Shown here piece by piece: positions 37,131 through 64,000 of a stretch of DNA of 64,000 nucleotides (its first letter is position 1; each line of letters opens with the position of its first letter). This stretch comes from Escherichia phage DaisyDussoix. The translations under genes were made by a program, and so were the position numbers. The stretch lies in sequence record MZ501058; one strand, given 5' to 3'. The notes under the pieces were generated by a model, which was not told the DNA's origin, did not search any database, and saw only the letters and a list, made by a program, of their open reading frames with translations.

Positions 37131-37142
37131 TCAAGGATCGCT

Positions 37143-49961: not shown

Positions 49962-50290
49962 AATCTCATAGATTAAAAACATCAACTTGTTTTTACCTCT
50001 AGGCCGTAGATTTACATCATTCCTCGTAGGAAAACACTTGATGACGGTTCTGTTCGCAGGTTCTCGTCAATTGTTCTTCCACACCGAGACTTAGGAGGAT
50101 GTATCAAATCGCACGCGCCTAGAGGGGCTAACTCTCATGAAATGGGGGTATATTAACTTTTAAATAACTGATAAATATTTAAAGGCAATATCTGTGTTCA
50201 AGATGATACACCTGTTGCCGCTCATCTGCTAGGATGGCACAACACTTTCTTCTAGACTCCTAAGTTTCTAGGAAAACTCTGGTTAACTCA

Positions 50291-50363
50291 GGCGGTTTTC
50301 ATGTTCCTAGAAACTCTAGCAATAGGCGGTTAATATAGGGCGGTTATAGGGAGGGCGGTTATT
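50291..50363. repeat. direct repeats of GGCGGTTA (4 copies) interleaved with TCTAGAA motifs
   Basis: AGGCGGTTTT, AGGCGGTTAAT, GGGCGGTTATAG, GGGCGGTTATTT within 75 bp. Confidence 0.6.
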
Positions 50364-50404
50364 TCTAGAAGACATTTTTTGAAAACACATTTCTGGATTT
50401 TACT

Positions 50405-51010
50405 GTCGGATTTGCACATTGTGTTTCTAGAAATTTATGGTCGGATTTGCACAAACGCCTAAGTTTTTAGGAACTCTTACTCTCCTGAAAATAGCAGCAT
50501 TATTTCGGGCCGAAGGCCCGTGATTGCCTGAGTTTTTAGAGCCACAGAAATTTTCACTTGTCAAGCTATTTTGCCCCATTTTGCTAATAAAATTTTACTT
50601 TATCTCCACTAATCTCAAATTAACCCAAATCTTCTCAACTCTTCCCCAAAAACGCAGCAAATCAGGTGCTCCGCACCAAACATGCGCCTCTCTCACAGTT
50701 CCCCCAAGTTTCTCTCGCTCTCTCAACTTCTCCCCAAACCCACACAATCACACACCCTCCAATCGAAGTCACAAAAATCTTGTCGGATTCGCACATCTTA
50801 ATCCTAGAAAAACCGTGTCGGATTTGCACATACCCCACAGGATTCGAACGCAGTTCGAGATTGCTGGAGTTTTTGGGAAAATTCATTGTCGGATTTGCAC
50901 ACTATAAAAATTTTTCGGGTCGGATTTGCACACTACCAAAAATTGTCGGATTCGCACATACATGCCCGCACGTAACACCCGTGGAGCAATGTCGGATTTG
51001 CACAAAAGCG
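50405..51010. repeat. iteron-like array: 8 copies of GTCGGATT(T/C)GCACA
   Basis: Copies near 50406, 50440, 50783, 50815, 50887, 50918, 50943, 50990, all same orientation, irregular spacing; the ORF-track calls here are probably spurious. Confidence 0.7.
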
Positions 51011-51215
51011 CAGGGCAATTGCCCTGCTTGCCTGAATGCGAATGATAATGAGAATCATTCGCATTTAAAAAGCGGAACGAGAATGATAATAATTCGCATT
51101 TAAGAATGGAAGTGAGAATTATTCAGGAAGTGAAACGATTCTCATTTAAAAAGTGGAATGATTATTAGTTAGATAGTGAAATGCGAATGATAATGATTCG
51201 CATTTAAGAATGGAA
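51011..51215. repeat. array of AATGCGAATGATAAT...ATTCGCATTTAA hairpin-forming repeats
   Basis: Palindrome CAGGGCAATTGCCCTG, then three AATGCGAATGA/TCATTCGCATT inverted-repeat units each followed by TTAAGAATGGAAGTGAG-like sequence. Confidence 0.6.
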
Positions 51216-51237
51216 GTGAGTAACACTATTATTTAAG

Positions 51238-51319
51238 TTATCCACAGACTTATTAACAGCACGATTTGACTTGACAAAATCCTAGCCATTTTGAGGCGTT
51301 ATTAACAGACTTATCCACA
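51238..51319. promoter_or_regulatory. DnaA boxes (2 consensus TTATCCACA sites)
   Basis: TTATCCACA at 51238-51246 and 51311-51319. Confidence 0.6.
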
Positions 51320-51328
51320 GGTTATCCT

Positions 51329-51348
51329 ACTGTATAAATATACAGTAT
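51329..51348. promoter_or_regulatory. LexA (SOS) box, near-consensus
   Basis: TACTGTATAAATATACAGTA versus consensus TACTGTATATATATACAGTA, 19 of 20 match. Confidence 0.6.
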
Positions 51349-51540
51349 TCCTACGCAGTGAATAATTCTAATATACAGCTAAAACGCTCTCAAACGCATT
51401 CTAACGCGTTTAATTTTGGTGGGGATACTAAAACAAGGGCAAAATTGGAGGAGGCTTGAAAATTAGTTAGCTCGCTAATGATCACACAAGGCGATACGTA
51501 ACACCCTAATCATTAGCAGGCTAACCATCGCGGGCGCGGT

Positions 51541-51563
51541 CAAATGAGAATCATTCTCATTTG
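51541..51563. repeat. perfect palindrome CAAATGAGAATCATTCTCATTTG
   Basis: 10-bp arms; related to the GAGAATCATTC units upstream. Confidence 0.55.
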
Positions 51564-51604
51564 AAAATTGGGGGGCACTTCCTGATAGTTGCGCCCCGTG
51601 ATTA

Positions 51605-51799
51605 TTAGTCTGGTAGTCGGTGCGTGATTTTCTCCTCCTCCCCGTAGGAATCTACCAAATGTTGATAATAACCATCGTGATCATAAATCACTTTATCATA
51701 CTCGCCACGCTCGACCGCTTGTCGGTTTTCCGGCGTATCGGGCACGTAAAAAACATCAACCATTGTACTGATTTTGGTTACAACAATTTTATTGCTCAT
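51605..51799 (-). CDS. hypothetical protein (pre-early-like module)
   Basis: 64 aa, last gene of the minus-strand operon. Confidence 0.5.
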   Translation of the reverse strand: MSNKIVVTKISTMVDVFYVPDTPENRQAVERGEYDKVIYDHDGYYQHLVDSYGEEEKITHRLPD

Positions 51800-51824
51800 A
51801 ATAACGCCCCGTTACTATATAATC

Positions 51825-52169
51825 TCATTGCGCCACCTTTCGAAATGCTGTTTCAATACTATCAGCGGTGGATTGAATATATGCGCCTTTCATTATCAGG
51901 CGCTCGGTACATACCTTGCGGAAAATATTAATAAAATCATCTTCATTTTCTGCAATTAATGCTTCACCCATAACCTGAACGTCACAAGATGCAAAGGTCA
52001 AAAATTGAAACGCTAGTTCACGGGCAACGACCGCATTGATTTTATAATGCGCCTTGCCCTCATAAATATTAATAACGCCCTTATAGGCTGGGGAAAGCTG
52101 ATTTAAATAGTTTGCTAACAATGCCGGGCGGCAATTAGCAACAAAACGATTGCCCTCATAAATAACCAT
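51825..52169 (-). CDS. hypothetical protein
   Basis: ORF 51825..52208 trimmed to Met (MVIYEGNRF) whose ATG follows the upstream stop by 1 nt. Confidence 0.5.
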   Translation of the reverse strand: MVIYEGNRFVANCRPALLANYLNQLSPAYKGVINIYEGKAHYKINAVVARELAFQFLTFASCDVQVMGEALIAENEDDFINIFRKVCTERLIMKGAYIQSTADSIETAFRKVAQ

Positions 52170-52170
52170 T

Positions 52171-52383
52171 TTATAATACCCCACGAAACGCAGCGTAAAA
52201 GGTGGCAAAGTGTTTAACTGTTTCAGCGATCATGTTGCCGCGCTTGTCAAATTTCTTTTCTGTAACACGAAAGGCATTCTTATTACGTGCTACATATTCG
52301 ATTTTACAATCTTCCCGCTCGAACGTGTTAACGTCCACCAGCTTAAAGCCTTTCGAACGTGCGAGAGAAACATTACGAATCAT
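52171..52383 (-). CDS. hypothetical protein
   Basis: 70 aa ORF. Confidence 0.5.
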   Translation of the reverse strand: MIRNVSLARSKGFKLVDVNTFEREDCKIEYVARNKNAFRVTEKKFDKRGNMIAETVKHFATFYAAFRGVL

Positions 52384-52385
52384 TT

Positions 52386-52535
52386 TTATTCTCCTTTACT
52401 AGTCATGCAGCCCAGCAGATAAGAAAATACAGCGATACCCGCGCCGATAATAACGGCGTGAACACCGAAAGCTATTGCAAACAACGATAAAATAGCGCCC
52501 AAGATACCCGCCAGAATAGCTCGAAAAATAATCAT
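52386..52535 (-). CDS. small hydrophobic membrane protein
   Basis: About 49 aa (MIIFRAILAGILGAILSLFAIAFGVHAVIIGAGIAVFSYLL...) with GGAGAATAA RBS; below ORF-track cutoff. Confidence 0.35.
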   Translation of the reverse strand: MIIFRAILAGILGAILSLFAIAFGVHAVIIGAGIAVFSYLLGCMTSKGE

Positions 52536-52581
52536 TTTTATTCTCCTAGTCAGTGGGGGATATAATATCCCCCGTTATTAA

Positions 52582-52812
52582 TTACATTAAAACAATTTTT
52601 GCAGCTTGTTTTTTAGTGCAATGTTCAGCTTTCAGGGTATCCAGCAAAAAGCCCGCCGTTTGCTGATCGATTTTATCGGCGTTGTATAGTTCCTGAATGG
52701 TATTATAAGTTTTAGCAATGCCGAACTCCTGCACCATTTCATAGATGACAGCACGATTAGATACCCAGCCTTGAGCGGTGAACAGATGAGTAGCAGAAGA
52801 GTAAGCAACCAT
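52582..52812 (-). CDS. hypothetical protein
   Basis: 76 aa ORF. Confidence 0.5.
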   Translation of the reverse strand: MVAYSSATHLFTAQGWVSNRAVIYEMVQEFGIAKTYNTIQELYNADKIDQQTAGFLLDTLKAEHCTKKQAAKIVLM

Positions 52813-52916
52813 TTTAAGCCTCCAAATTTTTGGGAAATTTTCAACCCACCGTTTTGGTGTAAAAGCATTATAACAAAAAAGGCCACCATAAAAGGCGACC
52901 TTTACAAAACTTTACA

Positions 52917-53411
52917 TTAAACTACTTGTAAGGACTCAACATTGAAACATCGTTTCAATTCGTCATGCAAAACGGCATATTCCTCCCATCGGGTATTATC
53001 AGGAATATAAACAAGCTGTTTTAATCGGTTTGCATATATTACCGCTTTGTTATCGACTATCTCGACGCCGCCATATTTAATAATTAATTTCATGACGGAA
53101 TTAATAGGATCGCCGCCGTTTACATATGTGCCGGATTTACTTAGCTGATAATGATAAAGGCTTGCGTATACGTTTTCATTTTCATACCATTCGCCAGTTT
53201 CTTCGTCTTCATAGCCATCGCTACCAAAACGAGAAGCATTATCAACAGCCATTTCATGAGCAAAAGCGTCCAGATCCGTACCAGCAGGAACAAAATATTC
53301 CTCGGTATTCCCTTCCCCGCAATAGCCAGTATGACAATCGACTAAAATGATCATATCATGTTTAGCCGTGCTCACTTCCCCTAGCGAGAAGCCGTATTTT
53401 TCCTCAGCCAT
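52917..53411 (-). CDS. hypothetical acidic protein
   Basis: 164 aa ORF with GGAGG RBS. Confidence 0.55.
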   Translation of the reverse strand: MAEEKYGFSLGEVSTAKHDMIILVDCHTGYCGEGNTEEYFVPAGTDLDAFAHEMAVDNASRFGSDGYEDEETGEWYENENVYASLYHYQLSKSGTYVNGGDPINSVMKLIIKYGGVEIVDNKAVIYANRLKQLVYIPDNTRWEEYAVLHDELKRCFNVESLQVV

Positions 53412-53425
53412 TAGTTAGCCTCCTA

Positions 53426-53743
53426 TTAATTAGCGGGAAAATAAAACTGATTGCCTGTTTCATATTGGTCATTGTCTAAGAATACAACCTCATCCGTGAT
53501 TACTTCCGATTCTGATACTCCTATTAATAACTCACCTTTAAAAACGCAAAGTTTTCCATGACCTAAATCACGAAAGGCATGAAATCCGTTTGCGCTTTCT
53601 GCATGTTGCCATACGTGGGGCCATCCTGCTTTTTTCCATGAATCGGCGGTGTCTACTACTTCCGAAGAATAGTTAATGTGAGGATAGTCATCGCGCTGGA
53701 TTCTACCTTGCAATTGTTCTAGCATTTTTTGGTTAAGCTGCAT
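53426..53743 (-). CDS. hypothetical protein
   Basis: Start MQLNQKMLEQ preceded by AGGAGG RBS. Confidence 0.5.
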   Translation of the reverse strand: MQLNQKMLEQLQGRIQRDDYPHINYSSEVVDTADSWKKAGWPHVWQHAESANGFHAFRDLGHGKLCVFKGELLIGVSESEVITDEVVFLDNDQYETGNQFYFPAN

Positions 53744-53807
53744 AATTAGCCTCCTATTAATTAACAAGGGAATAGTAAAGTGGGGAAATAATCCCCACTA
53801 AATATTA

Positions 53808-54818
53808 TTACTCGATTTCGGTGCTAGTGGTAAAAGTAGAAATATCAATACCTTTCACCATTTCATCAATCATTTCAGCGATGTTGAAACTTTGTACCAT
53901 TTCCAACATTGCCGCCTCCATAGCCGCCCCTGCTACCGCTTTCGCCTTTTGGTTAGTCGGTGCGTACTGGTCAACCGCTACACTCAGCAGGTTAGCGATC
54001 ACTACACGACCAATAGGAGTATCGATATAACCTTTGATCATAAACGGTGCTTTTTTAGCCGCTACTTTCGTAATTTGAGTCAGTGCAATTTTACCCGCTT
54101 CCAGTTTTGCAGCATTTACAACAGCGGATTTATTAGCGGCAACGATGTTAGCAATCTTGGTCATGGTGTTTTTTCCTTTGTTTTCAGTAGTTTGAGTGTT
54201 AACGCTTTGAGTGTTAGAATTTACAGCATGGTTTTCTACGCTGTCAATAATCTGATCTTCATCTTTCCAGAAAGAAAAACCAGCGCTTTCTATATCCCCA
54301 TCATAAATATATGGGTATAGCTCCCGTGGTAACAAAAAATTACCATCGCCATCAAAAGCCATTATACCAGTATATTGAGATCCGTCGTTATCCGGCTTAT
54401 GCCATCCAGCGGGTAAATACTTCCAGATAACATCTAAAAATCCCTCAATGCTAGAAAGTCTATTTATCAGATCAAGCCCAATAAGCTCGAAACCATTTAT
54501 ATTAAATGATTGACGGCCTGAATTGCTATGATACGCAACAATATTATTACCCTGCGCAATAATAAAATCGGTATCCGGCCCCGCTCCCCTGCCTGTAAAG
54601 ATATGGCAATCCCGATTATATAAAACTAGCGTTGCCCCTTGTTTATATAACGGCAAAAAACCATCCATATCATAAGCGTCATAATCATCAAAAAAGTTTT
54701 GATGAATAGTTTCAGCCTTGTTAATAAAATGTTTAATGCTGGTTGACTTGCTACCGTCCAGCAGGTTGCGCAATGCGCCTTTTAAAACGGTGGCATTATC
54801 AGGTTTATACAGCCTCAT
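53808..54818 (-). CDS. hypothetical protein, first gene of minus-strand operon
   Basis: 336 aa; start MRLYKPD preceded by GAGGAGG RBS; no motif recognised. Confidence 0.6.
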   Translation of the reverse strand: MRLYKPDNATVLKGALRNLLDGSKSTSIKHFINKAETIHQNFFDDYDAYDMDGFLPLYKQGATLVLYNRDCHIFTGRGAGPDTDFIIAQGNNIVAYHSNSGRQSFNINGFELIGLDLINRLSSIEGFLDVIWKYLPAGWHKPDNDGSQYTGIMAFDGDGNFLLPRELYPYIYDGDIESAGFSFWKDEDQIIDSVENHAVNSNTQSVNTQTTENKGKNTMTKIANIVAANKSAVVNAAKLEAGKIALTQITKVAAKKAPFMIKGYIDTPIGRVVIANLLSVAVDQYAPTNQKAKAVAGAAMEAAMLEMVQSFNIAEMIDEMVKGIDISTFTTSTEIE

Positions 54819-55084
54819 TTGTTCGGCCTCCTCGTTAATCGGTGAGTGAATGATAAAGGTAATTTTCTAGCATAGGCAAATATTATTTTACCTTTTTATT
54901 TTCCTTGCCTAGCGCCTATTTTTATGCTAATCGCGCAGCGGTGTAATAAAGAGCAAAACACGGCGAAGCCACCAGGCCGCAGCATTGAGGCTTTACTTTA
55001 CTATTACCTTGCAGCGTTTAGCTCGTTAGAATGCGATTTAGGCCGCTTAAAATTGATTGCAGTTGTTAACACTACCTTTTTACC

Positions 55085-55100
55085 CTGTATATTTATACAG
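55085..55100. promoter_or_regulatory. LexA (SOS) box upstream of the minus-strand operon
   Basis: CTGTATATTTATACAG core, CTGT-N8-ACAG, about 270 bp upstream of the 54818 start. Confidence 0.55.
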
Positions 55101-55110
55101 TGGAATAACC

Positions 55111-55192
55111 TGTGGATAAGTCTGTGTAAAAGTCCTTATATCGCCGCCTATCGTGTCAAGTTATTTTGTGCTGTGGATAACGTTGTGGATAA
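55111..55192. promoter_or_regulatory. DnaA box cluster (3 sites, inverted orientation)
   Basis: TGTGGATAA at 55111-55119, 55172-55180, 55184-55192. Confidence 0.6.
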
Positions 55193-55443
55193 CTTAAATG
55201 ATAGTGGTTCTCACTTAGCTAGATGATTTCTTATAGTTATTATTTCTCATTAATTTATATGTATATTATATATCATGAAATAGTTATTTAGCTAATGAGA
55301 TTTTTCGTGATTAATAGTCTGCTAATAGTTTACTCTGTTACAGTCCACCAGCATGATTATCATCCTAGCAATTATTATCCTGCTATCTTTCCGATACATA
55401 CTAGCAAACAAAAGTCAATTAATTTATTTCATAAAATAAGTAG

Positions 55444-55510
55444 TTATCCACTGGAAAATAAAAGTCAAGTGGATAACTAGGAAAATTTCATTTTTGCTTT
55501 TGGGGATAAG
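55444..55510. promoter_or_regulatory. additional DnaA-box-like sites in divergent intergenic region
   Basis: TTATCCAC at 55444, GTGGATAA at 55470, GGGGATAAG at 55502. Confidence 0.4.
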
Positions 55511-55923
55511 TTATCAACAAGGCTAGAATGCGCCTAAAACGCCCTAGAACGCGATGAAGTTTTTAGCCATCCCATCATAAGGGAACACGCCGTTTATCGC
55601 CATCAGGAGGATTCTAGATTTTGTCAAGTATGGCAAAGCAAATATAAATGAAAAAATTACTTGCCTATTTGCTATGTTTTGTGGTATTCGCGCGCCCGTT
55701 TCTTTTAATTTTAGGCCGTCGCCGCACGGTGTCCGGTGAGTTTTACCTTTACATTTCTTTACAAAAATAAGGTTGCGCCATTTTCGGGAATCCCCTATTA
55801 TTTATCACGTAGGGCGGCAATGACGAACTACACGGCGGGAAGTTTACCGCCACGCTCTTTAAAAATTGGGTACATCTTAAAGCCTATCGGCGGTAAACTT
55901 ATACATTATAAGGAATCGACGAT

Positions 55924-56127
55924 ATGAAACAAACGCTTTTGATCACTGGCAAGCCTATTAAGGCACTAGATAGCAAAACAAAAAATTTGTTGACAGTAGC
56001 TCAAAGATCAGTAAAATATAGATTCACGCAGTACAAGAAAGGTCGCCAGCAAGGTCTGGAAATGATCTGGCGAAACATTATGATTGACTTGAAAGAAAAT
56101 CATAAAAAACTGCAAAAAACAGTTTGA
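55924..56127 (+). CDS. hypothetical small basic protein
   Basis: 67 aa ORF. Confidence 0.4.
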   Translation: MKQTLLITGKPIKALDSKTKNLLTVAQRSVKYRFTQYKKGRQQGLEMIWRNIMIDLKENHKKLQKTV

Positions 56128-56354
56128 CAACCTAGCCGATAGGCTTTAAGATGTACTCAGTTCGATAAGAGCGATAACTTGATAAAATTTGACGGTCGGC
56201 ACTTACCATAATGTGTCCCGCCCCCTAACTGGGATATAGCGGCCTACGTGGAGTTCTTTAAATTGATTATAGCGGTGAGCGGATTGTTGCTTATTACCTG
56301 CTACTTTCTAGCAGGTAATGCGGAACAATCCCCAAATAACTAGGAGTTTATATT

Positions 56355-56606
56355 ATGAAAAACGTTATTACCGCGCCTAAAATTGGTCAATCCGTTTTTA
56401 TTCCTTTCGTTACTAAAACGGATGAACTAACCGGAAAAGCCGAACGTATTAAAGGTGCGGCGCTTATGCCGTTTGATACAATCGACGCGGTATACGCTGA
56501 AAATGAACGTAGTAACAACGGCAAAACCGTTTTTAGCGTTCGCGTTAAATCCGGCGACGTTGTAAAGGTTGTTCAACGTAACGAAAAATGGGAAGCTGTA
56601 TTGTAA
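56355..56606 (+). CDS. hypothetical protein
   Basis: 83 aa ORF with AGGAG RBS, followed by perfect palindrome. Confidence 0.5.
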   Translation: MKNVITAPKIGQSVFIPFVTKTDELTGKAERIKGAALMPFDTIDAVYAENERSNNGKTVFSVRVKSGDVVKVVQRNEKWEAVL

Positions 56607-56620
56607 TGTAGTGTTAACTT

Positions 56621-56650
56621 TATATCCCCCTTATTTCAGGGGGATATAAC
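56621..56650. terminator. perfect 10-bp-stem palindrome (terminator or operator) in pre-early region
   Basis: TATATCCCCC-TTATTTCA-GGGGGATATA; no U-tract. Confidence 0.45.
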
Positions 56651-56663
56651 GATTAACATTAGG

Positions 56664-56682
56664 TTAATCTAATCCCTTAAAT
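56664..56682 (+). promoter_or_regulatory. conserved pre-early leader motif TTAATCTAATCCCTTAAAT
   Basis: Same 19-mer about 20 nt upstream of the 56704, 57490 and 59985 start codons. Confidence 0.5.
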
Positions 56683-56703
56683 TAAACTAATAGGAGTTTT
56701 ATC

Positions 56704-57111
56704 ATGACTAACGCTAAAACCGCAAAATTCGGATGGAATGAAGAAAACACTCAGAAAGCTGTTTCCATGTATCAGCAGTTAATTAATGAAAACGGTTTAG
56801 ATTTCGCAAATAGCGACGGCCTGAAAGAGATTGCAAAAGCAGTAGGCGCGGCTTCCCCTGTATCCGTTCGCTCAAAATTGACCAGTGCAAAAGCCTATCA
56901 AAAAAGCGATAAGCCGCGTAAAGTTGGCGGCGGTAGCTCTGTGCGTAAAGCTCACTATGTGCGAGTAATTGCAAAACACGCTATCGATTCCGGCATTATC
57001 AAAGACGCCGATGATCTGGCAAGTCTGGAAAGTGCAAAACTTGAAACGCTGGACGCAGTAGCGCAATTGTTAGGCGTTGCCGATGAAGTAAAACAGGCCG
57101 CAGGGGAATAA
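56704..57111 (+). CDS. pre-early protein, A2-like by size and position
   Basis: 135 aa ORF preceded by the conserved leader motif; placed next to the A1-like gene; A2 identity is from memory of size only. Confidence 0.45.
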   Translation: MTNAKTAKFGWNEENTQKAVSMYQQLINENGLDFANSDGLKEIAKAVGAASPVSVRSKLTSAKAYQKSDKPRKVGGGSSVRKAHYVRVIAKHAIDSGIIKDADDLASLESAKLETLDAVAQLLGVADEVKQAAGE

Positions 57112-57158
57112 TAGTTATATCTTGCCCCCTTCTAGTGAGGGGGCAATAATATAACTGT
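57112..57158. terminator. long palindrome (terminator or operator)
   Basis: TAGTTATATCTTGCCCCCT-TCTAGTGA-GGGGGCAATAATATAACT. Confidence 0.45.
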
Positions 57159-57201
57159 TTAGCGATAGTTATTTTCTTCCCTTAAATCAGGAGTTTTAAA
57201 A

Positions 57202-57399
57202 ATGATTTTCTTCCCTACTGAATCATTAATTCTAGGCTTGTTTATTATGGCGGCCTCGTTATTGTTCGCTTATTTTCAAAATGATTTAGATTCATATTAT
57301 TTTAAACGTAAATCTAAACTAGCAAAACGTTTAGGTCTGCTTTGTTTTATCGCTGCCGTTGCTTGTGGTGTTAGTTCTAGCCTAGTGCCTTTAAATTAA
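57202..57399 (+). CDS. small membrane protein
   Basis: 65 aa with hydrophobic segments. Confidence 0.4.
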   Translation: MIFFPTESLILGLFIMAASLLFAYFQNDLDSYYFKRKSKLAKRLGLLCFIAAVACGVSSSLVPLN

Positions 57400-57406
57400 T
57401 GTTGCA

Positions 57407-57440
57407 AATTATAACGCCTATTATTTGAGGCGTTATATTT
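57407..57440. terminator. palindrome (terminator or operator)
   Basis: AATTATAACGCCT-ATTATTTG-AGGCGTTATATTT. Confidence 0.45.
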
Positions 57441-57456
57441 GGCAATATTGCCATTA

Positions 57457-57475
57457 TTAATCTAATCCCTTTAAT
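57457..57475 (+). promoter_or_regulatory. conserved pre-early leader motif
   Basis: TTAATCTAATCCCTTTAATGGAG upstream of A1-like gene. Confidence 0.5.
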
Positions 57476-57489
57476 GGAGTTTTATTACT

Positions 57490-59160
57490 ATGATTATTTC
57501 CGCAGAAAAACAAACCGTTATCCTGAAAATGGCCGCTGACTTTAATTTCTATGGTAAACGTCTGCGCGCTACTAAACTGGAGGTCTGCGACGATATATCA
57601 AAAGCAGTCTACGATACAACGAAACATTCCACCGCCATTTGTGATTGGCTGGAAGCAAACAAACCAGCGAAACCAAAAGCGGCAAAAGTAGCAAAAGCCA
57701 TTAAAAATGATGAGCGCCCAGAAGCGGCTGGGATTGTTTCTAGTACCGTGGAACAGTGGGAAGTAAAACAGGGTAAACGTTTTATTATTACGTCGATTCA
57801 GAATAATACTTTCCCGCATAAAAACTTTTTGGCCTCACTGGAGCAATTTGCTAAATATATCGGCGCTGATTTGCTGGTTAGCAAGTATATTTATAATAAA
57901 AACGGATTCCAAAATGGGGAAGGTGCGGACGGTATCAAATATGACCCCGCTTTTGATAAATATATTTGCAGCAAAAACGTGTTTTTGAATAATCGCCGTT
58001 TTGCTTTCATGGCTGAAATTAACGTTTTGCCAACCGCAGATTATCCGCTTTCTGGATTCGCTGAAACTGCAACCGCGCTTAATCTTGAAGGTCTGGCAAT
58101 TGGTCACGCTAAAATCACCGCCGAAAGCGTTCCAGCTTTAAAAGGTGAAGTAGTGCGCCGTATGTATTCAACCGGAACGGCAACGCTCAAAAACTACATT
58201 CAGCAGAAGGCAGGACAAAAAGCCGAAGCATTGCATAATTTCGGTGCGCTTGTTGTCGAGTTCGACGAGGACGGTGAGTTTTTTGTTCGCCAGCTTGAAA
58301 CAATGGACGAAAGCGGGGTGTTTTATGATCTGAATGTTTGCGCTACTCCCGCCGGATGCTATGAAACAACGGGGCACGTTTTAGGTTTACAATATGGCGA
58401 CATTCACGCCGAAAAATTAGATGAAGAGTGCGCCGCCGCATCTTGGGGGCATGGTGATACTTATGGGCTTGTGGATATTCTTAAACCAAAATATCAGTTT
58501 GTGCATGACGTGCATGATTTTACGTCCCGCAATCATCATAACCGCGCATCCGGTGTATTCCTAGCAAAACAGTATGCCGCCGGACGTGATAAAGTTCTGG
58601 ATGATCTTATCGATACGGGGCGAGTGCTGGAATCAATGGAACGTGATTTTAGTCAAACGATCATTGTTGAATCGAATCACGATTTGGCGCTATCCCGTTG
58701 GCTTGATGATCGTAATGCTAACATTAAAGACGATCCCGCGAACGCCGAACTATATCATCGCCTGAATGCTGCAATTTACGCGGCAATCGGTGAACATGAC
58801 GAAACGTTTAACGTGCTAGATTATGCGTTGCGCAAGGTTGCAGGTTGTGAATTTAACGCCATTTTTCTAACGACTGACCAATCTTTCAAGATTGCAGGGA
58901 TTGAATGCGGCGTACACGGTCACAATGGCATTAACGGCAGCCGTGGCAATCCTAAACAATTTAAGAAATTGGGCAAGTTAAACACGGGGCATACGCATAC
59001 CGCCAGCATTTACGGCGGCGTATACACCGCTGGCGTAGCTGGTAGTCTGGATATGGGTTACAACGTTGGCGCGTCAAGCTGGACGCAGACGCATTTAATT
59101 ACCTATGCAAATGGTCAAAGAACATTGATTGACTTTAAGAACGGTAAATTCTTTGCATAA
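57490..59160 (+). CDS. A1: pre-early protein A1-like metallophosphoesterase-domain protein
   Basis: 556 aa; C-terminal half has YGDIHAE, ESNHD, GVHGHNG, GHTHT calcineurin-like phosphoesterase motifs; length matches my recollection of T5 A1. Confidence 0.7.
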   Translation: MIISAEKQTVILKMAADFNFYGKRLRATKLEVCDDISKAVYDTTKHSTAICDWLEANKPAKPKAAKVAKAIKNDERPEAAGIVSSTVEQWEVKQGKRFIITSIQNNTFPHKNFLASLEQFAKYIGADLLVSKYIYNKNGFQNGEGADGIKYDPAFDKYICSKNVFLNNRRFAFMAEINVLPTADYPLSGFAETATALNLEGLAIGHAKITAESVPALKGEVVRRMYSTGTATLKNYIQQKAGQKAEALHNFGALVVEFDEDGEFFVRQLETMDESGVFYDLNVCATPAGCYETTGHVLGLQYGDIHAEKLDEECAAASWGHGDTYGLVDILKPKYQFVHDVHDFTSRNHHNRASGVFLAKQYAAGRDKVLDDLIDTGRVLESMERDFSQTIIVESNHDLALSRWLDDRNANIKDDPANAELYHRLNAAIYAAIGEHDETFNVLDYALRKVAGCEFNAIFLTTDQSFKIAGIECGVHGHNGINGSRGNPKQFKKLGKLNTGHTHTASIYGGVYTAGVAGSLDMGYNVGASSWTQTHLITYANGQRTLIDFKNGKFFA

Positions 59161-59175
59161 TTAAATTATTCCCCT

Positions 59176-59199
59176 AGCGGCTTGAAATATAGCCGCTAT
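59176..59199. terminator. palindrome after A1-like gene
   Basis: TAGCGGCT-TGAAATAT-AGCCGCTA. Confidence 0.45.
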
Positions 59200-59215
59200 T
59201 TCAGGAGTCACAAAA

Positions 59216-59473
59216 ATGAAAGTTACATTACCCAAAACACTGGACGAAAAAGTATTCATTTCACCGGATGAAATGGAATCTGATAAAGTTTACAGCTTCG
59301 GGCCTATCCTAGCCGCCAAAACTAATACTGATGGCATTATTTCCGTCGATTCCCGTGATAATGATGTTGTTCCTTTTGATGACGATAGCGCTTTTTATGA
59401 GTGGCTAAGCGATAATAATTTACCCGTAAACGGTGAATTAACGCCGTACCAGATGCAGATTATTATCAAATAA
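59216..59473 (+). CDS. hypothetical acidic protein
   Basis: 85 aa ORF. Confidence 0.5.
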   Translation: MKVTLPKTLDEKVFISPDEMESDKVYSFGPILAAKTNTDGIISVDSRDNDVVPFDDDSAFYEWLSDNNLPVNGELTPYQMQIIIK

Positions 59474-59511
59474 ATTAAATCCATTATTAAACTAATTGGA
59501 GTTTTATAAAC

Positions 59512-59904
59512 ATGAAAAAGCAAAATATTCCATTCGATCGCGCTCAGTCTTCCATTGTTCTGGTTTATTCTAATGGTGAACGTTATCACGTCGAGGCAGG
59601 CCACGTTATTGATGAATTATTAGATTTCAATGATGCGATGCAGGTTACAACATTTGCATATATGCAGGGCAAACTAACCAGCCATATTAAAGCAAAAGGC
59701 GTTTATGTTGACACGATGAAACAAGAAACAATCATTATTGACGCGGTAAAATCTGGTCTAGCCTTTGCAGTTGTCGCGCCTTGCCCCGCTTGCCTTGATG
59801 ATCAGCTAACGAGTGCGAAAGTATATACTTGTGCGGGTATTCGTTCCAGCGTATCCGGTGAGGATGTTAGTTTTATCGCTGATGCGTTGGCTTATGGTCT
59901 TTAA
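59512..59904 (+). CDS. hypothetical protein
   Basis: 130 aa ORF preceded by conserved leader. Confidence 0.5.
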   Translation: MKKQNIPFDRAQSSIVLVYSNGERYHVEAGHVIDELLDFNDAMQVTTFAYMQGKLTSHIKAKGVYVDTMKQETIIIDAVKSGLAFAVVAPCPACLDDQLTSAKVYTCAGIRSSVSGEDVSFIADALAYGL

Positions 59905-59914
59905 TAGTTGATTT

Positions 59915-59946
59915 ATTATTACCCGCTTATAAATAGCGGGTAATGC
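59915..59946. terminator. palindrome (terminator or operator)
   Basis: TTATTACCCGCT-TATAAAT-AGCGGGTAATG. Confidence 0.45.
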
Positions 59947-59950
59947 TGAA

Positions 59951-59969
59951 TTAATCTAATCCCTTAAAT
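59951..59969 (+). promoter_or_regulatory. conserved pre-early leader motif
   Basis: TTAATCTAATCCCTTAAATGGAG upstream of dmp-like gene. Confidence 0.5.
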
Positions 59970-59984
59970 GGAGAACGCAACAAA

Positions 59985-60719
59985 ATGAATAAAGCTATTA
60001 TGAATATTTCCCGCAGCTTCCCGCATATTTCCCGCGTCATGATTTGGGATTTAGACGGCACTATCATTAATTCTTTCCATCGTGTAGCGCCTTGCTTTGA
60101 TAATGAGGGTAATTTAGATTTAAATAAGTATAAAAATGAAGCCTGCAAACATCATTTAATAATGCAAGATACTTTATTACCATTAGTTGAATACATGCGC
60201 CAGTGCATGAATGACTCAAATACTTTAAACATTATTTGCACCGCTCGACTAATGAGCAAATCAGATTATTACTTCCTGCGCAAACAAGGCTTGCGTGGTC
60301 GTGATAAAAGCAATATCCGCGTGTTTTCCCGCGACACACTGCATAAATATTTTAAAGCTGATAAGGTTAGCGAAATATACCACAGCAAGGACGCAGTGTA
60401 TAAATCTTATTATTTTGAGTTATTTAAACAGTTATATCCGAACGCTGATTTTACAATGATTGATGATCATAAAGGCGTGCTATCAGCGGCAGCGTCATAC
60501 GGATTTAAAACACTGGACGCACAAGCCGTTAACGATATTCTATCAATCGGCGTGGCATTAATAGGTGAAACCTTTATTGATGAATCCCTCGACGATGATA
60601 ATGATTATCAATTCCTAGCTGATCGTTTGAAATTATGTTGGGAAGGTATGACCGAGGAAGAACGCGCAGAATATAGTTGCAGCCCGCAACAATACATGGA
60701 GAAATTAAAAGTTGCATAA
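59985..60719 (+). CDS. dmp: HAD-family 5'-deoxyribonucleotidase-like protein
   Basis: 244 aa; IWDLDGTIINS HAD motif I; dmp assignment from position in the A1 cluster. Confidence 0.7.
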   Translation: MNKAIMNISRSFPHISRVMIWDLDGTIINSFHRVAPCFDNEGNLDLNKYKNEACKHHLIMQDTLLPLVEYMRQCMNDSNTLNIICTARLMSKSDYYFLRKQGLRGRDKSNIRVFSRDTLHKYFKADKVSEIYHSKDAVYKSYYFELFKQLYPNADFTMIDDHKGVLSAAASYGFKTLDAQAVNDILSIGVALIGETFIDESLDDDNDYQFLADRLKLCWEGMTEEERAEYSCSPQQYMEKLKVA

Positions 60720-60736
60720 TAATTAAAGTTGAAATA

Positions 60737-60773
60737 GTTTCACCCTGCAATTAAAATGGTTGCAGGGTGAAAC
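60737..60773. terminator. palindrome after dmp-like gene, likely bidirectional terminator
   Basis: GTTTCACCCTGCAA-TTAAAATGG-TTGCAGGGTGAAAC, between convergent gene sets. Confidence 0.55.
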
Positions 60774-60883
60774 AGTTACCCTGATAATAGTAACGGGGGT
60801 GGCGGTTAGCAGACTAAGTATTCTCCCCCAACCCACTGGACACACCTCCATGTGTAATCTTATGAAATTTGGCAAAAGTCAAA

Positions 60884-61129
60884 TTAGCGCATAGAAGGGT
60901 CATCAAACCTGTGTTCTGGTCTGAACTCACGGAATCTCTTCCGCGATGCCCGAGATCCATCCGACCACTCCCGCTCAAACTCCGCACGTTTCTCGTCAAA
61001 CTTCCGCTCCCTTTCCGCAATCTCCCGCGACACTCCCGCAATATATTCCCGATGCTTGTTAATTGCCGCAGTCGCTCCGAAAACTCCCGCGAGTATCCCG
61101 ATAATAAAAGCAATTACAATACTAAACAT
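60884..61129 (-). CDS. small membrane protein
   Basis: 81 aa with N-terminal TM helix. Confidence 0.45.
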   Translation of the reverse strand: MFSIVIAFIIGILAGVFGATAAINKHREYIAGVSREIAERERKFDEKRAEFEREWSDGSRASRKRFREFRPEHRFDDPSMR

Positions 61130-61316
61130 CTAATTCCCTCTCAATTTGCAGAATACGGGTGCTATCACAACGTTGCAGTAGTACTAGCTTTTCTAGAGTA
61201 ACTTGTTGTTGTTTTACCTGAGCTTCTAGAGTTTTTAGGCGAACATACGCGTTATAAGAAACAATGAAAGTTGCCCAGACCAGTATTACTATTAGTGTAG
61301 CTACTACTTCCATCAT
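61122..61316 (-). CDS. small membrane protein
   Basis: 64 aa with N-terminal TM helix. Confidence 0.45.
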   Translation of the reverse strand: MMEVVATLIVILVWATFIVSYNAYVRLKTLEAQVKQQQVTLEKLVLLQRCDSTRILQIERELDV

Positions 61317-61318
61317 TT

Positions 61319-61426
61319 ACGTTTCTCCAGTAATAAGGTTTCAATTCTATCTAAGTGATTATCCAAAATACATTGCCCAATAATCACAATTCCTAGTAGT
61401 GCAATAATTACCCATTCCATTATTTA
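61319..61426 (-). CDS. tiny membrane protein, paralog of 61420..61575
   Basis: About 35 aa (MEWVIIALLGIVIIG...RIETLLLEKRK); shares MEWVII and RIETLLEE ends with neighbour. Confidence 0.3.
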
Positions 61427-61575
61427 CGCTCCTCTAATAAAGTTTCAATTCTAGATAATCTATTACTCAACTGCATTAATTTAATTTCTGTTTGGGTTAC
61501 AGAGGTATCTATTACACGTAAGCCTACAAAGAGAAGTATCAATAAGACGAATATGCCAATAATTACCCATTCCAT
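61420..61575 (-). CDS. tiny membrane protein
   Basis: Internal Met MEWVIIGIFVLLILLFVGL of ORF 61420..61605. Confidence 0.4.
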   Translation of the reverse strand: MEWVIIGIFVLLILLFVGLRVIDTSVTQTEIKLMQLSNRLSRIETLLEERK

Positions 61576-61701
61576 TAAATCCACCCCGCCATAGCTGCTA
61601 ACCAAAAACCTACGAAGATTAGGAATAATACAAAACCAAATCCGTAAATATTAATCCACGCTTCGTACACTTCTCCACGTCTGTTCTTTCTTTTATTTGA
61701 C
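61573..61701 (-). CDS. tiny membrane protein
   Basis: About 42 aa (MSNKRKNRRGEVYEAWINIYGFGFVLFLIFVGFWL...); below ORF-track cutoff. Confidence 0.3.
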
Positions 61702-61880
61702 ATATCTTTCTTGCTCCTATGAGTATGGTATTTTAAAATATTTTATAATTTGTATATAACCAACCATGCTTGTGACTTCCTAGAAGGACTTCTCATTTTC
61801 TTACATAGTGGTTTCTGCCAATATACCATCCAAAAAATAAAAAATTTAGTTTACTTAGATGTCTTTTTGCTTTATACTAA

Positions 61881-62147
61881 TTACAGGTAGTTAGATTGCT
61901 CTAGTTTAAATTTACAATCACCATATTTAAGGTCAAACTGACTGAGATCCCACCATCCAAACTTAGTACGGAGCTGTACTACTGGGAAGCGATCTCCCTT
62001 AATACGAACTTTTTGAACCTTGAGGCCGTAATGTTCTTCTCCCGCACCACCAAAAGATTTTACAAATCCAGTACAAAATGGTTTGGGAGCAGGTGCACAA
62101 CCAGATAACATAACTGCGGCAACTAGTGCAATCACAAACTTTTTCAT
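61881..62147 (-). CDS. llp: Llp-like lipoprotein (candidate receptor-blocking superinfection-exclusion protein)
   Basis: 88 aa; signal peptide with lipobox LSGC; divergent from the adjacent RBP-like gene, as recalled for T5 llp/oad. Confidence 0.6.
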   Translation of the reverse strand: MKKFVIALVAAVMLSGCAPAPKPFCTGFVKSFGGAGEEHYGLKVQKVRIKGDRFPVVQLRTKFGWWDLSQFDLKYGDCKFKLEQSNYL

Positions 62148-62232
62148 ATTTATCTCTCCATTTCTAATTTATGAATCTATTATAGCAAAATAGAGGGATG
62201 AAAGCAAATACATTTTTATAATAGGAGATTAT

Positions 62233-63990
62233 ATGGGTTTTTTCGCTGGAAAATATAGCGATGGTAAGACCGTACTATCTTTAAATACTGAATCTGGTGG
62301 TGACATTAATCGTCACTATAGTCCAAATGCCAATAGTATTTTTCATAGTGATATGCCATTTGTCCTAGTTGATGGTACTTATGAGGCTGGGTTAGGAAAT
62401 GCCGGAAATGGGTTTTTTGTATGTCAGATGCCCTCTGACATAATAAATATTAAATCTAACGATCCTGGTAGAGTTATATTAACTGCTATTGAGATTAATG
62501 GTACTCACAGAGCTTTTCTTAATGGTACTCAGAGTAAGGTGGGTCAAACTATAGTTGCCACTCAAGCAGATCCTTTTAGATCTTTTGCTAGTGTTTCCCA
62601 GACTAGTGGATTTGCATTTGGTAATAGCCTGGCATCTGGTACATATAACTATAATCCATCTATAGGGCATGAAGAATCTATTTCTAGGAATGGTACTGGT
62701 GGAACTACCCTACATAGTACGTATCATGGTATAGTTAGGCCAGGTGCAGGAGCTCCAGTAGGGGTTACTGTTGCAAAAGCTTTTGCACAGTTAGGATTCC
62801 CTACTAATAGTAGTACAGTACCTATAGATGGGAATAACCAAAATTACTGGGACCCAGGATGGATGTCTCCTTTAGGATCAGCACACAGAGGGCACGATTG
62901 GTTCTATGTTTGTAACTCTAACATACGTGGGTATGGTGGGGTAAGACAAGGTCTTCCTGGTAATGTAAATACTATGTATCATGATGGGGGTAATAGGTTT
63001 GTTTGTAGGGGTTCTACAACTAATTTAGCTAATCAATCTGGTGATTCTACAATACTACAAGATTGGTATAACATAACTCCTACTAAAGTTATTTGGTACG
63101 TTTTGAATTTAAGATACTCAAATGGTGGTATGAGTATCTCTGGTAATCCTTTTACTGGTTCAGATATTCTTATATCTCCTTCTAATTTCATAATTAAAGG
63201 GGTTAGTCTTCCCAATACTGGATACAAGTTTATTAACCAGAACGCTTTCGGTAACTTAGGTTATAGACCAGATATGGAATATATTGGAAATAATGCAGCA
63301 TATACTGGGGCCTTTGGGGATACCACCGCAAGGTGCGAACTTGTAGGTTCTAGTAACGGGAGTTTATGGTCTCCTGTGGACTATGGAGGGGCTAAGTCTC
63401 AAATTAGTATTTACAAATTCGGAGCTGGTAAGCAATGGTACGTAAACTCTAATGATAATACTATCGGTAATGGACACGGGGTTGTTTGGGGACCATCAGC
63501 AGTTCCATTACGACTTTTTGGTGGAAATGTAGGTAGTTCTTATATGGGAGATGATATTACCCCCAGCTACCCAGGAACAGGAGATAGATACGTTGGTTTA
63601 TCAACTATTGGGCTAGGTATACCGGGTGGCAATGCTACAGTAATTCTTACCACTGAAGTTATATCAGGTAATCTTAACTGTGCAGGTGTCCCTGCTAATA
63701 CATGGAATAACGGTGTGTTTCAGGTGCAAGGAAGAAGAGCATATAGTTATAGTAATGGTGACGCGATATTCCACCAGATTTTAACATTACCAGTAGGGTA
63801 TTTAGTACCTTTTCATACTACATCTGCTTTTAGATACACACCTAACAATGCCCTAAGTAGAAATAGTTTTATATATACTGCTAAAAATCTGGGGAATGGA
63901 AATGTAGAGTTAGGGGTAGTTATGCACGTAAGTTTAGGTAGTGCAGTTTTTCTACCTAGATTAAGAGTAACAGTTCAACGCCTTACCTAA
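62233..63990 (+). CDS. receptor-binding tail protein (pb5/Oad-like)
   Basis: 585 aa; N-terminus MGFFAGKYSDGKTVLSLNTESGGDINRHYSPNANSIFHSDMP resembles my recollection of T5 pb5; Gly/Asn/Thr-rich. Confidence 0.6.
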   Translation: MGFFAGKYSDGKTVLSLNTESGGDINRHYSPNANSIFHSDMPFVLVDGTYEAGLGNAGNGFFVCQMPSDIINIKSNDPGRVILTAIEINGTHRAFLNGTQSKVGQTIVATQADPFRSFASVSQTSGFAFGNSLASGTYNYNPSIGHEESISRNGTGGTTLHSTYHGIVRPGAGAPVGVTVAKAFAQLGFPTNSSTVPIDGNNQNYWDPGWMSPLGSAHRGHDWFYVCNSNIRGYGGVRQGLPGNVNTMYHDGGNRFVCRGSTTNLANQSGDSTILQDWYNITPTKVIWYVLNLRYSNGGMSISGNPFTGSDILISPSNFIIKGVSLPNTGYKFINQNAFGNLGYRPDMEYIGNNAAYTGAFGDTTARCELVGSSNGSLWSPVDYGGAKSQISIYKFGAGKQWYVNSNDNTIGNGHGVVWGPSAVPLRLFGGNVGSSYMGDDITPSYPGTGDRYVGLSTIGLGIPGGNATVILTTEVISGNLNCAGVPANTWNNGVFQVQGRRAYSYSNGDAIFHQILTLPVGYLVPFHTTSAFRYTPNNALSRNSFIYTAKNLGNGNVELGVVMHVSLGSAVFLPRLRVTVQRLT

Positions 63991-64000
63991 AGGAGGAAAT

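What the first reader, a model, noticed from the sequence alone, without database searches (positions are those of the whole stretch)
61881..63990. Divergent lipoprotein and receptor-binding protein pair suggests a receptor specificity module distinct from T5 pb5
An 88 aa lipoprotein (lipobox LSGC) is transcribed divergently from a 585 aa pb5-like protein. T5 pb5 and Llp are, from memory, 640 and 77 aa, so this pair probably targets a different outer-membrane receptor. The lipoprotein likely masks that receptor after infection.
Basis: partly seen in the sequence, partly recalled or inferred. Interest (0 to 1): 0.45.

Follow-up and report, generated by a model that had tools for sequence, protein, structure and literature searches.

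The report
BF23-type BtuB receptor module of T5-like phage

Summary
An 88-aa prolipoprotein (lipobox LSGC) lies at 61881-62147 (-) and a 585-aa pb5-like protein at 62233-63990 (+), separated by an 85-bp divergent intergenic region.

The window is a T5-like phage (Tequintavirus) collinear with phage EC148. The lipoprotein is 100% identical to BF23 Llp, the characterised BtuB-blocking protein, and 99% identical to DT57C Llp.

The large protein has the pb5 fold (only significant PDB hits 8b14/8a8c, TM 0.67-0.71) but is only about 30% identical to T5 pb5. It is 97.6% identical to the RBP of Bas32, whose listed terminal receptor is BtuB. It is 73% identical to DT57C Hrs and 67% to BF23 Hrs, both BtuB binders, and 28% to the RBP of H8, a FepA binder.

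The receptor is BtuB, and the module has been described since the 1990s-2000s and is present in hundreds of sequenced phages.

The parts
61881..62147 (-). llp: 88-aa prolipoprotein, the BF23-type receptor-blocking (superinfection-exclusion) lipoprotein. Residues 1-16 are the signal peptide and Cys17 is the lipidated residue. Ala at position +2 implies sorting to the outer membrane.
   Evidence: ORF. Pfam LPAM_1 above cut-off. 100% identical to BF23 Llp and 99% to DT57C Llp. phrog_1119 E 1.8e-26. C17, C25 and C78 are invariant in the family. The AF2 model (pLDDT 83) shows a small beta-rich domain. The +2 sorting rule is established knowledge and was not tested.
62097..62108 (-). Lipobox L-S-G-C (residues 14-17), the signal peptidase II cleavage and lipidation site.
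   Evidence: Read directly from the sequence and the translation. LPAM_1 match to residues 1-18.
62148..62232 (.). 85-bp divergent intergenic region with both ribosome-binding sites. GGAG for llp lies on the - strand at 62156-62159 and AGGAG for the RBP at 62223-62227. A candidate llp promoter on the - strand has an extended -10 (TGCTATAAT, 62179-62187), a 17-nt spacer and a weak -35 (TTGCTT, 62202-62207).
   Evidence: My reading. The consensus scan reported nothing here because the -35 matches only 3 of 6 positions, so the promoter is an inference. The T5 and BF23 records annotate putative divergent early and late promoters at the same place.
62233..63990 (+). 585-aa receptor-binding tail-tip protein, a pb5/Hrs homologue of the BtuB class.
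   Evidence: phrog_4815 E 5.7e-274. PDB 8b14_B/8a8c_B (T5 pb5) E 2.6e-50 by sequence, and the only significant Foldseek hits for the model, E 2e-31 and TM 0.67-0.71. Identity: 99.7% EC148, 97.6% Bas32, 73% DT57C, 67% BF23, 55% phiR2-01, about 30% T5, 28% H8.
62548..63042 (+). Most variable third of the RBP (aa 106-270), inferred to be the receptor-contacting end. It holds the equivalents of T5 pb5 loops L1 and L2 (tips at Gln115 and Phe170).
   Evidence: DNA identity to BF23 falls to 42-67% here. Conservation minima among 23 BtuB-class RBPs lie at aa 106-120, 181-210 and 241-255, with indels after residues 114 and 253. HMMER aligns the T5 protein confidently only outside this stretch. Loop positions in T5 come from PMC9586334. 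The role in BtuB contact is inferred.
63808..63852 (+). Second variable patch (aa 526-540) with indels after residues 536/538. It aligns with T5 pb5 loop L4 (residues 570-590) and is 12 residues shorter than in T5.
   Evidence: L4 is described in PMC9586334. Its function here is inferred.
61720..61880 (.). Left boundary of the exchangeable module. Downstream of llp, DNA similarity to T5 resumes at about 61720 and leftward.
   Evidence: Sliding identity to T5 is 70-96% at 60720-61419 and 81% at 61620-61719. It drops to 48% and then 31-38% across llp.
60884..61703 (-). Four small ORFs with hydrophobic stretches, co-oriented with and downstream of llp: 61575..61703 (42 aa), 61420..61605 (61 aa), 61122..61316 (64 aa) and 60884..61129 (81 aa). 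They are syntenic flanking genes, not part of the specificity module.
   Evidence: The same positions hold T5p155-158 in T5 and equivalent ORFs in DT57C, Bas32, BF23 and EC148. Their function is unknown.

Best explanation
The two genes are the host-recognition and lytic-conversion module of a BF23-like Tequintavirus, specific for the TonB-dependent vitamin B12 transporter BtuB. The 585-aa protein is the monomeric receptor-binding protein at the tip of the central tail fibre, homologous to T5 pb5 and BF23 Hrs. It inserts loops from its variable end (around aa 106-270 and 526-540) into the extracellular side of BtuB. That irreversible binding triggers tail-tip opening and DNA ejection. The divergently transcribed llp gene is expressed early. 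[quoted passage not shown] There it binds BtuB and makes it unusable as a receptor. This excludes superinfecting BtuB-dependent phages and spares progeny from adsorbing to cell debris. Steps shown experimentally in the literature for identical or near-identical proteins: Llp of this sequence type blocks BF23 and DT57C but not T5, and phages with RBPs of this cluster depend on BtuB. Steps inferred: which residues contact BtuB, periplasmic and allosteric action of Llp (by analogy with T5 Llp-FhuA), a Cys25-Cys78 disulphide, and the promoter assignment.
For: Identity. Llp is 100% identical to BF23 Llp and 99% to DT57C Llp. The RBP is 97.6% identical to that of Bas32 and 99.7% to EC148, 73% to DT57C Hrs and 67% to BF23 Hrs. 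Fold. The RBP model (pLDDT 86, pTM 0.88) matches only T5 pb5 in the PDB (E 2e-31, TM 0.67-0.71). Synteny. The order dmp, four small ORFs, llp(-), RBP(+) is the same as in T5, BF23, DT57C, Bas32 and EC148. Function in the literature. Cloned DT57C llp cut plating of DT57C and BF23 more than 100-fold and did not affect T5, and btuB-inactivated mutants resist DT57C and BF23 (PMC4728585). Bas32 is listed with terminal receptor BtuB (supplementary table of PMC8594841). Genome-wide screens found 23 BtuB-binding Demerecviridae, including EV212, whose module is 95.6% identical in DNA to the window's; their RBP is about 30% identical to pb5 (bioRxiv 10.64898/2026.04.02.716166). Module boundaries. DNA similarity to T5 is lost exactly across llp plus the RBP. 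Variable patches coincide with the pb5 loops that enter FhuA.
Against: No experiment was done on this phage. Receptor use is inferred from relatives. The RBP differs by 27-33% from the two best-studied BtuB binders (DT57C and BF23), and the differences concentrate in the presumed contact region. The exact BtuB epitope or allele preference could therefore differ. The periplasmic allosteric mechanism has been demonstrated only for T5 Llp-FhuA, and homology between that protein and this one is not established. The consensus promoter scan found nothing in the intergenic region.
Confidence: 0.93

Rival explanations
1. The RBP belongs to the BtuB sequence class, but this particular variant has switched to another outer-membrane transporter. 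The conserved Llp would then no longer match it.
For: The RBP is only 67-73% identical to BF23 and DT57C Hrs, and the divergence concentrates in the presumed receptor-contact patches. A recombination point lies between llp and the RBP gene (PMC4728585).
Against: RBPs of the same 95-100% cluster are assigned to BtuB experimentally: Bas32 at 97.6% aa and EV212. Even more distant members (DT57C 73%, Bas30 69%, phiR2-01 55%) use BtuB. A mismatched Llp should be lost, yet it is 100% conserved.
Confidence: 0.04
2. The lipoprotein is a Cor-type exclusion protein that inactivates FhuA, as the automatic label 'Cor superinfection exclusion protein' (phrog_1119) suggests.
For: phrog_1119 hit at E 1.8e-26. 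T5 Llp, an FhuA blocker, hits the same PHROG. Many database records carry the Cor label.
Against: The protein is identical to BF23 Llp. The 99%-identical DT57C Llp gave no protection against FhuA-dependent T5 (PMC4728585). With the signal peptide removed there is no profile similarity to T5-type Llp (score 10.8 against a shuffled mean of 10.6), so the shared label may rest largely on the signal peptide.
Confidence: 0.02
3. The small lipoprotein is a lysis component (an outer-membrane spanin of the Rz1 type) and not a receptor blocker.
For: Small phage lipoproteins with a lipobox are often o-spanins. This is general knowledge, and no tool result points this way.
Against: It lies beside the RBP and not in the lysis cassette. 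In the collinear phage EC148 the holin and endolysin are about 20 kb away. It is identical to a protein with a demonstrated exclusion phenotype. The model is a compact beta-rich domain, not an extended proline-rich peptide.
Confidence: 0.01

Closest known systems
Phage BF23 hrs-llp module (BtuB-binding RBP Hrs plus receptor-blocking lipoprotein Llp; Mondigler et al. 1996 and 2006 as cited in PMC4728585 and PMC10644984; genome OR083247)
   Same: Llp is 100% identical over 88 aa. Gene order, divergent orientation and flanking genes are the same. The RBP is homologous over its full length. Receptor class is BtuB.
   Different: The RBP is only 67% identical and 10 residues shorter (585 against 595 aa). 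Divergent patches lie at about aa 106-270 and 480-545. DNA identity drops from 95-97% in llp to 42-83% from the RBP start codon onward.
Phage DT57C / DT571/2 hrs-llp (Golomidova et al. 2016, PMC4728585)
   Same: Llp is 99% identical. BtuB was shown to be the receptor. It shows the same mosaic pattern, a BF23-type Llp paired with a divergent Hrs.
   Different: The RBP is 73% identical (586 aa) and is a third Hrs variant, distinct from both BF23 and the window.
Phages EC148, MM-1/MM-2, Bas32 IrisVonRoten, EV212, SP01 and SSP1 (the window's own RBP cluster)
   Same: Module DNA identity is 95.6-99.8% and RBP identity 95-99.7%. Bas32 and EV212 are assigned to BtuB. EC148 is collinear with the window over at least 33 kb.
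   Different: The flanking genome is only 91-98% identical to EC148. No record in the collection matches the right-hand 25 kb of the window above about 93% over most of its length.
Phage T5 oad (pb5) - llp module, FhuA-specific; structures 8A8C, 8B14, 8A60 and 7QJF
   Different: The RBP is 30% identical and 55 residues shorter. The L4-equivalent loop is shortened. The mature Llp shows no significant sequence similarity. The receptor is FhuA, not BtuB.
Phage H8 RBP (FepA-specific class)
   Same: It is a homologous full-length pb5-family protein (E 6.5e-46).
   Different: It is 28% identical, as far from the window's RBP as T5 pb5 is. No lipobox ORF was seen next to it in the unannotated draft record.

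Membership tests
pb5/Hrs receptor-binding tail-tip proteins of T5-like phages (phrog_4815; Pfam PF26860 on the homologues) | Full-length sequence homology to pb5 | tested here: met
   phrog_4815 E 5.7e-274, covering 1-585 of the protein and 1-650 of 650 profile positions. T5 pb5 chains 8b14_B and 8a8c_B E 2.6e-50. BLASTP to T5 pb5 2e-55, end to end. All 30 homologues carry PF26860. The local Pfam copy lacks this model and gave no hit.
pb5/Hrs receptor-binding tail-tip proteins of T5-like phages (phrog_4815; Pfam PF26860 on the homologues) | [quoted passage not shown] | tested here: met
   AF2 model pLDDT 86.2, pTM 0.88. Foldseek against the PDB gives only 8b14_B and 8a8c_B as significant hits, E 2e-31 and 6e-28, TM 0.62-0.71.
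pb5/Hrs receptor-binding tail-tip proteins of T5-like phages (phrog_4815; Pfam PF26860 on the homologues) | [quoted passage not shown] | tested here: met
   The llp side is in the window. The window ends 10 bp after the RBP stop codon, so the terminase side is seen only in collinear relatives: EC148, DT57C, BF23 and T5.
pb5/Hrs receptor-binding tail-tip proteins of T5-like phages (phrog_4815; Pfam PF26860 on the homologues) | Located at the tip of the central fibre, where binding triggers DNA ejection | not testable with these tools
   This needs virion structure or biochemistry.
BtuB-specific RBP class (BF23 Hrs type) | Clusters with RBPs of phages shown to need BtuB, apart from the FhuA and FepA classes | tested here: met
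   Identity is 97.6% to Bas32, 73% to DT57C, 69% to Bas30, 67% to BF23 and 55% to phiR2-01, against about 30% to T5 and 28% to H8. Receptor data come from PMC4728585, PMC8594841, PMC8624392 (its title) and the 2026 preprint.
BtuB-specific RBP class (BF23 Hrs type) | Infection depends on btuB | not testable with these tools
   This needs plating on a btuB deletion strain with complementation.
BF23-type Llp (BtuB-blocking lipoprotein) | Sequence identity to BF23 Llp | tested here: met
   88 of 88 residues identical.
BF23-type Llp (BtuB-blocking lipoprotein) | Lipoprotein signal peptide with lipobox, plus two further conserved cysteines | tested here: met
   LPAM_1 at 23.9 bits against a cut-off of 20. 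C17, C25 and C78 are invariant in 12 family members.
BF23-type Llp (BtuB-blocking lipoprotein) | Expression protects cells against BtuB-dependent T5-like phages but not against T5 | not testable with these tools
   Published for the 99%-identical DT57C protein, and reported for BF23 Llp (PMC4728585).
T5 Llp / Cor family (FhuA-blocking lipoproteins, phrog_1119) | Detectable sequence homology of the mature domain | tested here: not met
   Full-length hhalign gave 92% probability. With signal peptides removed the probability is 0.3% and the score 10.8, against 10.6 +/- 2.2 for column-shuffled controls. It is 0.1% after adding the distant member P0043. phmmer against the PDB finds neither 8a60_B nor 7qjf_A even at E 10. 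Both proteins do hit phrog_1119.
T5 Llp / Cor family (FhuA-blocking lipoproteins, phrog_1119) | Shared fold (small beta-rich domain whose termini are tied by a disulphide) | tested here: inconclusive
T5 Llp / Cor family (FhuA-blocking lipoproteins, phrog_1119) | Inactivates FhuA | not testable with these tools
   The literature indicates it does not. DT57C llp did not affect T5 (PMC4728585).

The most novel reading that the evidence does not exclude
Probability: 0.45. Interest if true: 0.3.

Novelty: already known. Interest (0 to 1): 0.1.

Why it matters
For this window it matters only for annotation. The phage can be labelled BtuB-dependent with a BF23-type Llp, and the automatic label 'Cor superinfection exclusion protein' is misleading about the target. 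The practical consequences are standard. Host resistance should arise through btuB loss. The phage should be cross-excluded by, and cross-resistant with, other BtuB-dependent phages, which is relevant when designing cocktails. More generally, the locus is a clear example of an RBP gene recombining independently of its cognate blocker while receptor specificity is kept. That was already described for DT57C.

Tried and rejected
1. Full-length profile-profile comparison of BF23-type and T5-type Llp gave 92% probability. I rejected it as evidence of homology because the signal vanished when the signal peptides were trimmed, and column-shuffled controls scored the same. Adding the distant member P0043 did not help.

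2. Foldseek of the Llp model against the PDB gave no hit below E 0.39.

3. phmmer of Llp against PDB sequences gave only noise, although T5 Llp is in the library.

4. An exhaustive profile search of 1.84 billion representatives with the Llp family found only its own cluster, one repeat-protein artefact (P0042) and one distant lipoprotein (P0043). It reached no Cor or T5 Llp sequence.

5. The local Pfam-A copy has no model for the RBP.

6. The sigma-70 and terminator consensus scan found no site in the 85-bp intergenic region and no terminator after llp. The promoter I propose comes from reading the sequence and is weakly supported.

7. I looked for an Llp next to the H8 (FepA-class) RBP and found no lipobox ORF of at least 40 aa there. 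The record is an unannotated draft, so I did not pursue it.

8. I considered an o-spanin role and an FhuA-directed Cor role for the lipoprotein. Both are rejected in the rival explanations.

Full report
**Observation.** An 88-aa ORF lies at 61881..62147 on the minus strand and begins MKKFVIALVAAVMLSGC. A 585-aa ORF lies at 62233..63990 on the plus strand. The two start codons face away from each other across 85 bp. The lipoprotein N-terminus passes Pfam's curated threshold for the lipoprotein lipid-attachment site. The lipobox L-S-G-C is encoded at 62097-62108. The residue after the lipidated Cys is Ala. By the established +2 sorting rule this predicts outer-membrane localisation (not tested here).

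**What the window is.** The region matches 331 phage records by megablast. The best are Escherichia phages EC148, MM-1 and MM-2 at 99.8% identity. Annotated relatives are Tequintavirus members. The gene order is the same as in T5, BF23, DT57C, Bas32 and EC148: A1, dNMP monophosphatase (59985..60719), four small ORFs, llp on the minus strand, then the RBP on the plus strand. In those phages the terminase genes follow the RBP. The window ends 10 bp after the RBP stop codon. EC148, joined end to end, is collinear with the window from 30.6 to 64 kb at 91-98% identity. No record covers the last 25 kb at more than about 93% identity. The window therefore comes from a distinct mosaic relative that carries a widely shared module.

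**The lipoprotein.** It is 88/88 identical to Llp of BF23 and 87/88 identical to Llp of DT57C. According to Golomidova et al. 2016 (PMC4728585), BF23 Llp blocks BtuB and prevents superinfection. In the same paper, the cloned DT57C llp reduced plating of DT57C-like phages and BF23 more than 100-fold and left T5 unaffected. The family is narrow. A search of 5.8 billion proteins found 11 clusters. An exhaustive profile search of 1.84 billion representatives found its own cluster plus one distant 86-aa lipoprotein, P0043. Cys17, Cys25 and Cys78 are invariant.

**The receptor-binding protein.** It matches PHROG 4815, 'receptor binding tail protein', end to end. It also matches the solved T5 pb5 chains 8b14_B and 8a8c_B (E 2.6e-50). 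An AlphaFold2 model built on 29 homologues is confident (pLDDT 86, pTM 0.88). Its only significant PDB matches are those two pb5 chains (E 2e-31, TM 0.67-0.71). Identity to T5 pb5 is only 30%, with 95 gap positions. Identity to other RBPs is as follows.

- H8 (FepA class): 28%
- BF23 Hrs: 67%
- DT57C Hrs: 73%
- Epseptimavirus group, including Bas30 TrudiRoth: about 69%
- phiR2-01: 55%
- Bas32 IrisVonRoten: 97.6%
- EC148: 99.7%

**Receptor data in the literature for these relatives.**

- BF23, DT57C and phiR2-01 use BtuB (PMC4728585; PMC10644984; title of PMC8624392).
- The btuB dependence of Bas30 was complemented. RBP phylogeny splits T5-like phages into BtuB, FepA and FhuA clusters (PMC8594841).
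- The supplementary table of that paper lists BtuB as the terminal receptor of Bas32.
- A 2026 preprint with genome-wide screens reports 23 BtuB-binding Demerecviridae whose RBP is about 30% identical to pb5. These include EV212, whose module is 95.6% identical in DNA to the window's.

The receptor of this pair is therefore BtuB with high confidence.

**Module anatomy.** Sliding-window DNA identity gives three results.

- Similarity to T5 is 70-96% to the left of about 61720. It is at chance level across llp and low across the RBP, and recovers at the RBP stop codon. The exchangeable unit is therefore about 61720-63990.
- Identity to BF23 and DT57C is 95-98% across llp and the intergenic region. 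It falls at the RBP start codon to 42-83%. This is the recombination point between llp and hrs that Golomidova et al. described.
- Database counts agree with that uncoupling. 179 records encode an Llp at least 95% identical, but only about 103 encode an RBP at least 90% identical. Duplicate records were not removed from these counts.

Among 23 BtuB-class RBPs the least conserved stretches are aa 106-120, 181-210, 241-255, 481-495 and 526-540, with indels after residues 114, 253 and 536/538. In the T5 pb5-FhuA structure, loops with tips at Gln115 and Phe170 and loop L4 (residues 570-590) insert into the receptor (PMC9586334). The pairwise alignment places these at the window's variable patches, and L4 is 12 residues shorter here. 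I infer that these patches form the BtuB-contacting end. I also infer that the conserved N-terminal ~100 residues and the C-terminal ...QRLT motif serve attachment to the conserved fibre. Neither inference was tested.

**Regulatory signals.** The consensus scan found nothing in the intergenic region. Reading the minus strand gives an extended -10 (TGCTATAAT, 62179-62187), a 17-nt spacer and a weak -35 (TTGCTT, 62202-62207), about 30 nt upstream of the llp start, plus a GGAG ribosome-binding site. The RBP has AGGAG 5 nt before its ATG. The T5 and BF23 records annotate putative divergent promoters at the same place. That llp is an early gene and the RBP a late gene is taken from T5 biology, not shown here.

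**Mechanism.** The best-supported account is the classical one. The RBP binds BtuB irreversibly and triggers ejection. Llp, made early, is lipidated, sorted to the outer membrane, and inactivates BtuB as a receptor. [quoted passage not shown] It grips a non-native plug conformation and makes two extracellular loops fold inward over the pb5 site (PMC9586334). The authors propose this as a general strategy against TonB-dependent transporters. Applying it to BtuB is an analogy.

**Is BF23-type Llp related to T5 Llp?** The literature calls them non-homologous, yet both hit phrog_1119, labelled 'Cor'.

- A profile-profile comparison gave 92% probability. After trimming the signal peptides the probability was 0.3% and the score equalled that of column-shuffled controls. 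Adding P0043 did not change this. The sequence signal is a signal-peptide artefact.
- Structurally, the Llp model (pLDDT 83) found nothing by Foldseek.
- The three cysteines occupy equivalent positions: 1, 9 and 62 of the mature protein against 1, 11 and 58 in T5. In T5 Llp the Cys11-Cys58 disulphide ties the termini together.
- P0043 sits in the same syntenic slot of a 111-kb T5-like contig. Its RBP N-terminus is 47% identical to the window's, yet the two lipoproteins give no BLAST alignment. Llp therefore diverges much faster than the RBP, and loss of detectable similarity at 30% RBP identity is expected even under common ancestry.

I rate remote homology as possible (about 0.45) but unproven.

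**Comparison and verdict.** The pair is a member of the BF23-type BtuB host-recognition module, with an RBP allele shared by about a hundred sequenced phages. The receptor differs from T5's, and the lipoprotein blocks it. Nothing here is new. The module was defined in BF23 decades ago. The llp/hrs recombination mosaic was described in 2016. The window's own RBP allele has experimental receptor assignments. Interest is low.

Noticed in passing
window 61420-61560 (ORF 61420..61605, minus strand, 61 aa): A segment of about 140 bp in the small-ORF cluster downstream of llp aligns to nothing in T5, BF23, DT57C or Bas32. Only 31 of 224 matching phage records cover at least 80% of the 61300-61760 query that contains it, among them EC148, Kenya-K15, NBSal005 and Es2; most other listed records match only in pieces or only its right-hand part. 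It creates a 61-aa hydrophobic ORF where other phages have a 35-aa one. Its function is unknown.
   Followed up: partly
window 19923-31279: There is a cluster of 23 tRNA genes, all on the plus strand. This is typical of T5-like phages.
   Followed up: no
window ~50000-60850 followed by 60884-64000: The pre-early terminal-repeat genes (A1 at 57490..59160, dmp at 59985..60719) run straight into the llp/RBP region, with the early tRNA region upstream. This layout, and the collinearity with end-joined EC148, indicate an assembly with a single collapsed terminal repeat, permuted relative to the virion DNA. The repeat boundary should lie near 60.8 kb, by analogy with T5.
   Followed up: partly
window 61700-64000 compared with 30654-61700: The llp-RBP module is 99.8% identical to EC148, while flanking blocks are 91-98% identical. 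This fits either recent exchange of the module or stronger constraint on it.
   Followed up: partly
phrog_1119 and the database labels on hits H2, H12, H16 and others: The automatic label 'Cor superinfection exclusion protein' is applied to BtuB-directed Llp proteins. T5 Llp and BF23-type Llp fall in the same PHROG, although their mature domains show no profile similarity. The grouping may be driven by the signal peptide, and the label misstates the target.
   Followed up: yes
L006 (Logan SRR27755633 contig, 111 kb), genes at 1-726 and 856-1116: A distant T5-like phage carries the same module architecture. Its RBP N-terminus is 47% identical to the window's. Its 86-aa lipoprotein (P0043) is recognisable only by profile (E 5.5e-4). 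Its receptor is unknown and could represent a further specificity class. RBP homologues P0036-P0038 (38-43% identity) are similarly intermediate.
   Followed up: partly
L005 (phage H8 draft, AC171169) 34700-37520: The FepA-class RBP (637 aa) has no lipobox ORF of at least 40 aa directly upstream. The neighbouring ORFs of 108 and 115 aa look unrelated to Llp. The record is an unannotated working draft.
   Followed up: no
P0042 (541 aa): This tandem-repeat protein hit the Llp profile at E 4.8e-7 through eight short repeats that match profile positions 12-35. It looks like a low-complexity or repeat artefact, not a relative.
   Followed up: no
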